Source of the DNA: Escherichia coli
Lineage (GTDB): Bacteria > Pseudomonadota > Gammaproteobacteria > Enterobacterales > Enterobacteriaceae
NCBI RefSeq assembly: GCF_003334335.1
Contig: NZ_QOWQ01000082.1
DNA: 3,720 bases
Direction: 5' to 3' (one strand)
The number at the start of each line of letters is the position of its first letter. The stretch's first letter is position 1. The notes under the pieces were generated by a model. That model was not told the origin of the DNA and made no database searches. It saw nothing but the letters and a program-made list of their open reading frames with translations. Made by a program: the position numbers and the translations under genes. Shown piece by piece: positions 1,732 to 1,788 of the stretch.

Positions 1732-1739
1732 CACGTTAT

Positions 1740-1759
1740 CAGGCCACCATGGCGGCCTG
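1740..1759. other. Palindrome / potential RNA hairpin in the D-E intergenic region
   Basis: CAGGCC (1740-1745) and GGCCTG (1754-1759) are exact reverse complements flanking an 8-nt spacer ACCATGGC; the element is nearly palindromic around CCATGG. No T-run follows. Confidence 0.35.
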
Positions 1760-1775
1760 ACTGATTTCTGAATGA

Positions 1776-1780
1776 AAGGA
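1776..1780 (+). promoter_or_regulatory. Shine-Dalgarno for E
   Basis: AAGGA 8 nt upstream of ATG 1789. Confidence 0.45.
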
Positions 1781-1788
1781 ACTGATTT

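What the first reader, a model, noticed from the sequence alone, without database searches (positions are those of the whole stretch)
1732..1788. Palindrome centred on CCATGG in the D-E intergenic spacer
CAGGCC/GGCCTG inverted repeats with an 8-nt spacer sit in the 57-nt gap between the decoration and capsid genes. It could be an RNA hairpin (processing or stability site) or a protein-binding palindrome. It has no T-run, so it is not a classic terminator. The function is unknown from sequence alone.
Basis: seen in the sequence. Interest (0 to 1): 0.3.

Follow-up and report, generated by a model that had tools for sequence, protein, structure and literature searches.

The report
Conserved RNA hairpin between capsid genes
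The palindrome is real: it is the phage-21 lineage's copy of a terminator-type RNA hairpin that many lambda-like phages carry between the head-decoration and major-capsid genes. This is an ordinary kind of feature, already annotated in phage N15, and its exact role has never been tested.

Summary
The window is a phage-21-like head operon. The 57-nt gap lies between shp (lambda D homologue) and gene 7 (E homologue).

**Observation.** The gap holds TCAGGCC-ACCATGGC-GGCCTGA at 1739-1760. On its own this is only marginally better than chance (P about 0.04-0.05).

**Comparative evidence is decisive.**
- Across 77 related haplotypes, the outer stem is about tenfold less variable than synonymous sites. 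The 8-nt apex varies freely.
- The hairpin aligns with D-E gap hairpins of Gifsy-1, lambda, N15, phi80 and other prophages. Pairing holds in 96% of cells, and 3 of 9 pairs show compensatory changes.
- Other lineages carry unrelated hairpins in the same gap.
- Most relatives have a T-run on the coding strand. N15's copy is annotated as a putative rho-independent terminator.
- The 21 lineage kept the stem but has only an interrupted T-tract.

**Rejected readings.** The palindrome is single-copy in phage 21 and is not dispersed in E. coli, which argues against an operator or a REP element.

**Best reading.** It is a terminator-derived RNA stem-loop in the late mRNA. Q21-modified polymerase reads through it. 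It probably acts as a decay barrier, and perhaps as a weak stop for unmodified polymerase. The function is inferred, not shown.

**Verdict.** New member of a known kind; low interest.

The parts
1729..1731 (+). TAA stop codon of shp (lambda D homologue). The hairpin core starts 8 nt after it.
   Evidence: ORF 1384-1731. Annotated shp / head decoration protein in phage 21 records.
1739..1745 (+). 5' arm of the core stem, TCAGGCC.
   Evidence: Inverted repeat I3. Pairing probability above 0.9 in a 260-nt context. Mean diversity of the outer stem is 0.012, against 0.10-0.12 at 4-fold sites.
1746..1753 (+). Apex/loop ACCATGGC, containing CCATGG. A1746 and C1753 form an A.C mismatch where most relatives have A-U.
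   Evidence: 6 of 8 positions are polymorphic in relatives, mean diversity 0.205. Variants include CCGCGG, CCATGG, CCGCGT and CCACGG.
1754..1760 (+). 3' arm of the core stem, GGCCTGA.
1735..1765 (+). Full predicted stem-loop: the core plus a 4-bp extension (GUUA 1735-1738 with UGAU 1762-1765, C1761 bulged).
   Evidence: This is both the MFE and the centroid structure for 1732-1771, at -13.7 kcal/mol. The phage 21 version gives -18.4. The flanks are nearly invariant in relatives. The S231-type relatives have an analogous extension, ACAG/CUGU.
1761..1771 (+). Interrupted T-rich tail CTGATTTCTGA, a degenerate counterpart of the U-tract seen in relatives.
   Evidence: 5 T in 8. The tail is TTCTGTTTTT in S231-type loci and T7 in lambda, N15 and phi80.
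1776..1791 (+). Shine-Dalgarno AAGGAA (1776-1781) and ATG (1789-1791) of gene 7 (E homologue). This is context, not part of the hairpin.
   Evidence: RBS annotated at the equivalent place in M81255 and OL657228. Predicted accessibility is unaffected by the hairpin.
2825..2855 (+). Second, stronger terminator-like hairpin (GCGGGGGCG AAA TGCCCCCGT plus a T6 run) just after gene 7. Together with the D-E hairpin it brackets the major capsid cistron.
   Evidence: 9 pairs, 7 GC. A hairpin at this position occurs in 11 of the 12 E-homologue loci folded. It is annotated as a putative terminator in N15.

Best explanation
The palindrome encodes an RNA stem-loop in the rightward late transcript. It is the phage-21-lineage copy of a hairpin that lambda-like head modules keep in the gap between the decoration gene (D/shp) and the major capsid gene (E/7). 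In most relatives this hairpin has the full anatomy of an intrinsic terminator.

In the 21 lineage the GC stem has been kept under purifying selection, but the U-tract is interrupted. It should therefore terminate poorly on its own. During lytic growth the late operon is transcribed by Q21-modified RNA polymerase, which suppresses terminator hairpins, so the sequence is read through and the hairpin folds afterwards in the mRNA.

Its most likely job there is post-transcriptional. It would be a structural barrier that blocks 3'-to-5' exonucleases and so protects the upstream shp segment. Together with the hairpin after gene 7, it would bracket the capsid cistron and shape how the mRNA for the two most abundant head proteins decays. 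A residual ability to stop unmodified polymerase in the prophage may be a second role.

Shown here: the hairpin, its conservation, its covariation, its homology to terminator-like hairpins and its strand. Inferred: read-through by Q21 and the decay-barrier function.
For: **Conservation in close relatives.** In 77 distinct haplotypes of 21-type loci, the outer stem has mean diversity 0.012 against 0.10-0.12 at 4-fold degenerate sites (P = 0.0009). The apex has 0.205, so the loop is free and the stem is constrained (variants).

**Covariation.** In an alignment of 25 distinct hairpins (21-type, S231-type, Gifsy-1, lambda-type, N15, phi80, Leclercia, Pluralibacter):
- 96.2% of cells are paired.
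- 3 of 9 pairs change on both sides: CG<->AU, GC<->GU<->AU and GC<->AU.
- 0 of 500 shuffles reach the observed pairing or covariation score.
- Slid controls give mostly about 40% pairing (38-62%).

**Same position, unrelated sequence.** Hairpins unrelated in sequence sit in the same gap in E. coli prophages L410-412, Trabulsiella, Vibrio K251 and Phobos. Of 12 lineages with a gap of 54 nt or more, 9 fold better than shuffles at P < 0.05.

**Strand.**
- T-runs follow the hairpin on the coding strand only, in lambda, N15, phi80, S231-type, L410-type and K251.
- G.U pairs occur on the + strand in lambda-type, L410 and several 21-type variants.

**Gaps in the late operon.** In both lambda and phage 21, gene junctions overlap or are at most 15 nt apart. 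The gaps of 41 nt or more are D-E, E-FI, L-K (lambda only), I-J and those after J, and each holds a strong hairpin. The 36-nt gap before shp in phage 21 does not.

**Annotation.** N15's D-E and E-FI hairpins are annotated as putative rho-independent terminators.

**Q21.** Q21 forms a nozzle on the RNA exit channel that prevents terminator hairpins (bioRxiv 10.1101/651190).

**Folding in context.** The hairpin arms pair with probability above 0.9 within 260 nt of flanking mRNA.
Against: - No experiment bears on the function. Nothing on this hairpin was found in the held literature.
- From my own memory, not checked here: Sampson et al. (PNAS 1988) reported roughly uniform mRNA levels and stabilities across the lambda late operon, with translation initiation setting protein ratios. 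That argues against a large stability effect.
- The hairpin is dispensable in some relatives. Providencia prophages (E 81% identical) have a 27-nt gap without it. One 21-type prophage deleted it. Distant relatives overlap D and E.
- The window's own variant has an A.C mismatch and folds better as minus-strand RNA, -17.8 against -13.7 kcal/mol. Within the 21 clade, wobble variants do not discriminate the strands.
- The whole gap, not only the stem, is conserved, so some of the constraint may belong to translation signals.
- Compensatory changes in quasi-palindromes can arise by template-switch mutation without selection on RNA (established knowledge, not tested here).
- The sequences in the covariation count are related, so the three double changes are about three events.
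Confidence: 0.45

Rival explanations
1. It is a working, leaky intrinsic terminator or insulator. It stops RNA polymerase that has not been modified by Q21, such as spurious or read-in transcription in the lysogen. This keeps capsid genes silent. In lytic growth it is simply overridden and has no role in the mRNA.
For: - It is homologous to hairpins with canonical U-tracts.
- N15 annotates its copy as a putative terminator.
- The lenient scan flags 1739-1760 as terminator-like.
- If the extended stem ending at 1765 forms, the next bases are UUCU.
- The phage L genome paper proposes exactly this role, among others, for intra-operon terminators in lambdoid late operons, and says their roles are not known (PMC8022706).
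Against: - The U-tract is the weakest in the series. Only 1 U lies in the first 4 bases after the core stem, and the tail is CTGATTTCTG.
- The lineage kept the stem under selection while the tail differs from the T-runs of its relatives.
- The curated phage 21 record annotates other terminators but nothing here.
- The window's variant is further weakened by an A.C mismatch.
Confidence: 0.3
2. It is a translation element. The hairpin would insulate the gene 7 ribosome-binding site from upstream GC-rich coding RNA. Alternatively it would tune coupling or re-initiation between shp and gene 7, setting the D:E protein ratio.
For: - The hairpin sits 8 nt after the shp stop and 28 nt before the gene 7 ATG.
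- The whole gap, including the SD region, is highly conserved.
- From memory: lambda late protein ratios are set mainly at translation initiation.
Against: - Predicted accessibility of the gene 7 RBS is unchanged by the hairpin: wild type 0.485, palindrome-shuffled mutants 0.483 +/- 0.045, deletion 0.508.
- The distance from the hairpin to the stop and to the start varies widely among lineages: 4-30 nt after the stop and 8-60 nt before the ATG.
- Equivalent hairpins also follow E, I and J, where no such coupling is obvious.
Confidence: 0.07
3. It is a DNA palindrome bound by a dimeric protein (phage or host), or another DNA-level signal. The conserved half-sites would be TCAGGCC/GGCCTGA, with a variable 8-bp centre.
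For: - Conserved outer half-sites with a variable centre is also the pattern of a dimer binding site.
- Phage 21 itself has a perfect 22-bp palindrome, and the common centres CCGCGG and CCATGG are themselves palindromic.
Against: - It is single-copy in the 42.9-kb phage 21 genome.
- In E. coli genomes it occurs only at D-E loci.
- Related lineages keep pairing with different half-site sequences, or with wholly unrelated stems.
- G.U states and the one-sided T-runs are asymmetric in DNA.
- No promoter-like site lies nearby.
- The location, inside a long operon between two structural genes, has no known need for an operator.
Confidence: 0.05
4. It has no present function. It would be a decaying relic of an ancestral terminator, or a chance or quasi-palindrome maintained by mutational bias such as template switching and hitch-hiking in recently spread prophages.
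For: - Single-sequence significance is marginal.
- The U-tract has decayed.
- The window's variant carries a mismatch.
- The hairpin has been lost by deletion at least once and is absent in Providencia relatives.
Against: - The outer stem is about tenfold less diverse than synonymous sites in the same haplotypes, while the apex is as diverse as or more diverse than they are.
- Pairing is maintained across lineages whose E proteins are only 58-61% identical.
- Gaps in these compact operons exist almost only where hairpins are.
Confidence: 0.08

Closest known systems
Phage N15 stem-loop between gene 7 (D-like) and gene 8 (E-like), NC_001901 5980-6004, annotated 'putative rho-indep. transcription terminator'
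   Same: Same gap between homologous genes and same strand. The stem core is alignable (AAAAGCCGC/GCGGCTTTT against TCAGGCCAC/GTGGCCTGA), with pairing kept through compensatory changes. A second hairpin follows the capsid gene in both.
   Different: N15 has a T7 run directly after the stem. The window has an interrupted CTGATTTCTG tail, a longer stem with a bulged extension and, in this variant, an A.C mismatch. Neither has been tested experimentally, as far as I could find.
Lambda D-E gap hairpin AAAGGCCGC-CTGT-GCGGCTTTT plus T-run (lambda 6097-6121 by my count; not annotated in NC_001416)
   Same: The position and the stem core are homologous. Lambda's late operon has the same pattern of gaps that hold hairpins.
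   Different: Lambda's copy looks like a canonical intrinsic terminator and lies 13 nt before the E start. The head genes are only about 61% identical in protein.
Intra-operon terminators in lambdoid late operons, for example after the procapsid module of P22-like phage L
   Same: These are terminator-like hairpins inside a single antiterminated late operon, next to highly expressed capsid genes. Their roles are stated to be unknown. Partial termination and blocking of non-antiterminated transcription have been proposed (PMC8022706).
   Different: The head module is a different, non-homologous one. Those sites were predicted as full terminators, whereas the window's copy lacks a good U-tract.
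Intercistronic stem-loops that stabilise upstream mRNA segments: REP sequences in malE-malF, the puf operon hairpins of Rhodobacter (from my own knowledge)
   Same: This is the proposed way of working: a stable hairpin between cistrons blocks 3' exonucleases and gives differential stability within a polycistronic mRNA.
   Different: This is an analogy, not membership. The palindrome is not a dispersed repeat, and no decay data exist for it.
Canonical intrinsic (rho-independent) terminators
   Same: A GC-rich stem of 7-11 bp, a loop of 4-8 nt, a site just downstream of a stop codon on the transcribed strand, and a T-rich downstream region.
   Different: There is no uninterrupted U-tract, and termination is untested. 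The site lies inside an operon transcribed by terminator-resistant polymerase.

Membership tests
D-E gap hairpin of lambda-like head modules (a comparative group defined here; annotated in N15) | Lies in the non-coding gap between the decoration-protein gene and the major-capsid gene, on the coding strand | tested here: met
   Stop at 1729-1731, hairpin at 1735-1765, ATG at 1789. The arrangement is the same in phage 21, Gifsy-1, lambda, N15, phi80, S231-type and L410-type loci.
D-E gap hairpin of lambda-like head modules (a comparative group defined here; annotated in N15) | Stem alignable with the other members, with pairing preserved through covariation | tested here: met
   Alignment A2: 96.2% of cells paired, 3 of 9 pairs with double changes, 0 of 500 shuffles as good, slid controls 38-62%.
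Intrinsic (rho-independent) terminator | GC-rich hairpin with a stem of about 5-14 bp and a loop of 3-8 nt | tested here: met
   7 perfect pairs (5 GC) with an 8-nt loop. The phage 21 variant has 9 pairs with a 4-nt loop. Energies are -13.7 and -18.4 kcal/mol.
Intrinsic (rho-independent) terminator | Uninterrupted U-tract (typically 4 or more U within the first 5-8 nt) directly after the stem | tested here: not met
   The tail is CUGAUUUCUG after the core stem, and UUCUGAAU after the extended stem. It passes only a lenient 5-of-8 rule. Relatives have TTCTGTTTTT or T7.
Intrinsic (rho-independent) terminator | Releases transcripts made by unmodified RNA polymerase | not testable with these tools
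   This needs in vitro transcription or 3'-end mapping.
REP/BIME-type dispersed palindromic repeats | Many copies dispersed in intergenic regions of the host chromosome | tested here: not met
   A 41-nt query matched only 1865 of 5426 E. coli genomes, with a median of 2 places per genome. Every listed place lies next to a head decoration gene. There is one copy in phage 21.
RNase III processing site | About 20 bp or more of near-continuous double-stranded RNA | tested here: not met
   The longest predicted helix has 11-13 pairs including a bulge.
Operator-type protein-binding palindrome | Sequence-specific half-sites conserved as sequence, usually reiterated or next to a promoter, with a cognate binding protein | tested here: inconclusive
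   The half-sites are conserved within the 21 clade but replaced in relatives. The site is single-copy and there is no promoter-like site in the window. Binding itself cannot be tested here.
Any curated RNA family (Rfam 15) | Match to a covariance model | tested here: not met
   No match at E <= 1 on either strand of the window.

The most novel reading that the evidence does not exclude
The 21 lineage is a natural experiment. It kept the D-E hairpin under strong purifying selection after losing the U-tract. This would show that the selected function of the 'terminators' inside lambdoid late operons is not termination. Instead it would be post-transcriptional: hairpins bracketing the capsid cistrons that set segmental mRNA decay, and so help fix the roughly 1:1, very high output of decoration and capsid proteins.
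Probability: 0.25. Interest if true: 0.45.

Novelty: new member of a known kind. Interest (0 to 1): 0.2.

Why it matters
It matters little for discovery, but it is useful for annotation and for phage engineering.
- The shp-gene 7 gap of phage 21 and of prophages in over a third of complete E. coli genomes (1944 of 5426) holds a selected RNA element. Neither phage 21 GenBank record annotates it.
- Lambda D/gpD display vectors and synthetic lambdoid head cassettes routinely edit this junction. The gap should be treated as functional sequence.
- The contrast between U-tract-bearing and U-tract-less homologues offers a cheap, direct test of an old open question: what are terminator-like hairpins inside Q-antiterminated late operons for?

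Tried and rejected
- **Rfam scan** at E <= 1: nothing.
- **Promoter scan:** no sigma-70-like site on either strand, so this is not a promoter or operator context.
- **Dispersed-repeat (REP-like) idea:** rejected. The 41-nt element is confined to D-E loci in E. coli genomes and is single-copy in phage 21.
- **RBS-insulation idea:** no support from partition-function modelling.
- **Stop-codon read-through or recoding stimulator.** I considered this because the hairpin starts 8 nt after the stop, and rejected it by inspection. The stop is TAA. The in-frame extension would be only 10 codons (HVIRPPWRPD). The hairpin-to-stop distance varies from 4 to 30 nt among lineages.
- **RNase III site:** the helix is too short.
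- **Attachment site for satellite integrases that target prophage late genes:** those sites lie inside coding sequences such as capsid gene E, not in this gap (PMC10111431).
- **Strand discrimination from wobble pairs within the 21 clade:** inconclusive. Two variants favour the + strand and two favour the - strand. The strand call rests on the relatives.
- **Literature searches** for direct experiments on a D-E hairpin or terminator in lambda or phage 21 found nothing. Two papers I wanted were not held.
- **The genome-contig scan** returned only 10 loci, and the lambda-E scan gave little new diversity.
- **TransTermHP-style tail scores** use a formula recalled from memory and are only a rough ranking.

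Full report
**What the window is.** The 3720 bases are a phage-21-type (Jouyvirus) head operon. It runs as follows:
- the 3' part of gene 5/6 (lambda C/Nu3 homologues), to 1347;
- shp (lambda D homologue), 1384-1731;
- gene 7 (lambda E homologue), 1789-2817;
- an FI-like gene, 2869-3252;
- an FII-like gene, 3245-3598.

It is 98.8% identical to Escherichia phage 204576 and 92-95% identical to phage 21. The shp-gene 7 junction occurs in 1944 of 5426 complete E. coli genomes.

**The observation.** The stop codon of shp is at 1729-1731 and the ATG of gene 7 is at 1789, so the gap is 57 nt. Within it, TCAGGCC (1739-1745) and GGCCTGA (1754-1760) are perfect inverted repeats around ACCATGGC. As a palindrome the arms are 11 nt long with a single A.C mismatch. 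As RNA the predicted structure adds four pairs (1735-1738 with 1762-1765, C1761 bulged) and has an energy of -13.7 kcal/mol.

Taken alone, this is not impressive:
- The gap beats dinucleotide shuffles only at P about 0.04-0.05.
- An 81-nt context gives z = -0.67.
- About 5% of 34-nt windows in this GC-rich sequence fold as well.

A lenient scan does list the site as terminator-like, because 5 of the 8 bases after the stem are T. 'No T-run' is therefore slightly overstated, but there is no canonical U-tract.

**Close relatives.** I collected the junction from several hundred IMG/VR prophage contigs and GenBank phages.
- Phage 21 itself has a perfect 22-nt palindrome, TCAGGCCACCGCGGTGGCCTGA.
- The common variants differ only in the central eight bases: CCGCGG+T, CCATGG+T, CCGCGT+T, and the window's CCATGG+C.
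- The window's exact 41-nt sequence is the best match in 86 of 1870 E. coli records.
- Changes in the outer seven pairs are rare: one U.G wobble variant, one C.A mismatch and one 1-nt deletion.

In 77 distinct haplotypes found through the capsid protein, and so not selected on the gap, mean nucleotide diversity is as follows:

| Region | Mean diversity |
|---|---|
| 4-fold degenerate sites of shp and gene 7 | 0.10-0.12 |
| Outer stem | 0.012 (P = 0.0009 against random 4-fold sites) |
| Whole gap outside the apex | 0.013 |
| 8-nt apex | 0.205 |

So the stem and its flanks are under purifying selection, and the loop is free. This pattern fits a hairpin. Taken alone it would also fit a dimer-binding site with a variable spacer.

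**More distant relatives.** This comparison settles the choice between those two.

*A series with alignable stems.* The same gap holds a hairpin with an alignable core in:
- a group of prophages whose E protein is about 91% identical to Gifsy-1's: CAGGCCGC-ACA-GCGGCCTG followed by TTCTGTTTTT;
- Gifsy-1: AAGGCCGC-GAA-GCGGCCTT;
- lambda: AAAGGCCGC-CTGT-GCGGCTTTT plus a T-run;
- N15, phi80, Leclercia and Pluralibacter prophages: AAAAGCCGC...GCGGCTTTT plus a T-run.

In an alignment of 25 distinct sequences, 96.2% of cells form standard pairs. Three of the nine pairs change on both sides (CG<->AU; GC<->GU<->AU; GC<->AU). No shuffle out of 500 reaches the observed pairing or covariation score. Sliding the partner by 1-3 columns drops pairing to 38-62%.

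The pair where the window has A.C is G-C in Gifsy-1 and lambda, A-U in most 21-type phages and G.U in a few. The window's mismatch is thus one state of a covarying pair. The sequences are related, so these are about three events rather than many independent ones.

*Hairpins unrelated in sequence.* Independent support comes from hairpins of unrelated sequence in the same gap: E. coli prophages L410-412 (AAACGGGTCGC-GAT-GCGGCCCGTTT plus GTGTTTTT), Trabulsiella, Vibrio phage K251 and phage Phobos. Of 12 lineages with a gap of at least 54 nt, 9 fold better than shuffles at P < 0.05.

*Strand.* T-runs follow the hairpin only on the coding strand, and G.U pairs occur on that strand in several lineages. 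The element therefore acts in the rightward transcript.

*Annotation.* The N15 GenBank record already annotates its D-E and E-FI hairpins as putative rho-independent terminators. Neither phage 21 record annotates anything in this gap.

**Context in the operon.** In lambda and in phage 21 almost every late-gene junction overlaps or is separated by 15 nt or less. The gaps of 41 nt or more are D-E, E-FI, L-K (lambda only), I-J and the ones after J. Each contains a strong hairpin, mostly terminator-like. Phage 21 also has a 36-nt gap before shp that has no such hairpin. The major capsid cistron is thus bracketed by two hairpins. In the window the second is at 2825-2845 and has a T6 run. In operons this compact, the gaps seem to exist for the hairpins.

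**Rivals tested.**
- *Dispersed repeat or reiterated operator:* rejected. The palindrome is confined to D-E loci in E. coli and occurs once in the 42.9-kb phage 21 genome.
- *Promoter context:* no promoter-like site lies nearby.
- *Known RNA family:* no Rfam family matches.
- *RBS insulation:* predicted accessibility of the gene 7 ribosome-binding site is the same with the hairpin, with the palindrome shuffled, or with it deleted: 0.485, 0.483 +/- 0.045 and 0.508.
- *RNase III site:* the helix is too short.
- *Recoding signal:* the variable distance to the stop codon and the TAA stop argue against it.

Evidence against strict necessity also exists. Providencia relatives have a 27-nt gap without a hairpin. 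One 21-type prophage (L055) lost the hairpin through a deletion between two CCTGA repeats, which also rewrote the last residues of the decoration protein. Distant relatives overlap the two genes. The element is therefore modulatory, not essential.

**Mechanism.**

*Shown here:* the feature is a conserved, covarying stem-loop on the coding strand, homologous to terminator-like hairpins.

*From the literature:* Q21 travels with RNA polymerase from the late promoter. It forms a nozzle on the RNA exit channel that prevents terminator hairpins from forming (bioRxiv 10.1101/651190). Late transcription should therefore pass the site whatever its strength.

*Inferred:* the 21 lineage conserved the stem while its tail is the least U-rich of the series. 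What is selected is thus probably the hairpin in the finished mRNA. It would be a block to 3' exonucleases that protects the shp segment and, with the downstream hairpin, a bracket around the capsid cistron. I put about 0.85 on 'selected RNA hairpin of terminator ancestry' and about 0.45 on the decay-barrier role as the main function.

*Main rival (0.3):* it still acts as a weak terminator or insulator against unmodified polymerase in the lysogen. This is one of the roles suggested for intra-operon terminators in lambdoid late operons, whose functions are 'not known' (PMC8022706).

*Against a large stability effect:* I recall, but could not check, that Sampson et al. (PNAS 1988) found similar mRNA stabilities across the lambda late operon.

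*Caveats:* the window's own variant folds better as antisense RNA because A.C becomes G.U. Quasi-palindromes can also acquire 'compensatory' changes by template switching.

**Verdict.** The 'protein-binding palindrome' half is not. 'Not a terminator' is true only of this decayed copy. This is a new, unannotated member of a known kind of feature. Interest is low.

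Noticed in passing
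window 2825-2855: There is a strong terminator-like hairpin (GCGGGGGCG-AAA-TGCCCCCGT, then GTCTTTTTTC) in the 51-nt gap after the major capsid gene. A hairpin at this position is present in 11 of the 12 E-homologue loci I folded, including distant Casjensviridae. N15 annotates its copy as a putative terminator. The phage 21 records do not annotate it.
   Followed up: partly
L419 (lambda 1-23000) and L420 (phage 21), late operons: Nearly all late-gene junctions overlap or are 15 nt or less apart. The gaps of 41 nt or more (D-E, E-FI, L-K in lambda, I-J, after J) each hold a strong hairpin. The 36-nt gap before shp in phage 21 does not.
   Followed up: partly
window 1746-1753: The apex of the palindrome is as variable as, or more variable than, synonymous sites (diversity 0.205). 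Its common states keep a palindromic centre (CCGCGG, CCATGG), and the intermediate CCACGG is rare. This could reflect template-switch (quasi-palindrome) mutation rather than selection.
   Followed up: partly
L055 1440-1500 (IMGVR_UViG_2634166457_000005): This locus has a natural deletion between two CCTGA repeats. It removes the hairpin and changes the decoration protein's C-terminus to ...AGSALTDF*, leaving a 17-nt gap before gene 7. Whether this prophage is viable is unknown.
   Followed up: partly
L233 and L235, about 60-90 nt upstream of the capsid gene start (position 601): Two S231-type loci carry an enlarged hairpin, CAGGCTACAGGCCGCACAGCGGCAGCGGCCTG. It looks like a nested duplication of both arms and is predicted to fold into a longer stem.
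   Followed up: partly
window about 812-915, 952-1062 and 1093-1206: There are three tandem repeats of about 105-115 nt inside the scaffold gene (gp6/Nu3 homologue). They encode repeats such as EAKGREQLA...VEQARAILAAA. M81255 annotates them as 'Tri boxes, function unknown'. The coordinates were transferred from L001 by an offset of 117.
   Followed up: no
L003 3001-3245 (Aeromonas phage AP1, MT713136.1 250152-250396): A 245-bp stretch is 96% identical to window 1788-2032, the start of the capsid gene. It sits in an unannotated region of a 254-kb T4-like Aeromonas phage record. It is probably an assembly chimera or contamination.
   Followed up: no
L085 (JAIJJM010000220.1) and rows H109, H131, H138: A 'Collinsella sp.' MAG contig encodes a capsid protein 100% identical to the window's. 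GenBank records named Campylobacter phage CJLB-4, Enterococcus phage AS-M1_NWU and Listeria phage LM 4-14-1 carry lambda-like or Chi-like enterobacterial capsid genes. The host or bin labels look doubtful.
   Followed up: no
window 1732-1771, minus strand: The window's particular variant folds more stably as antisense RNA (-17.8 kcal/mol) than as sense RNA (-13.7), because the A.C mismatch becomes G.U. No promoter-like site was found to drive antisense transcription.
   Followed up: partly
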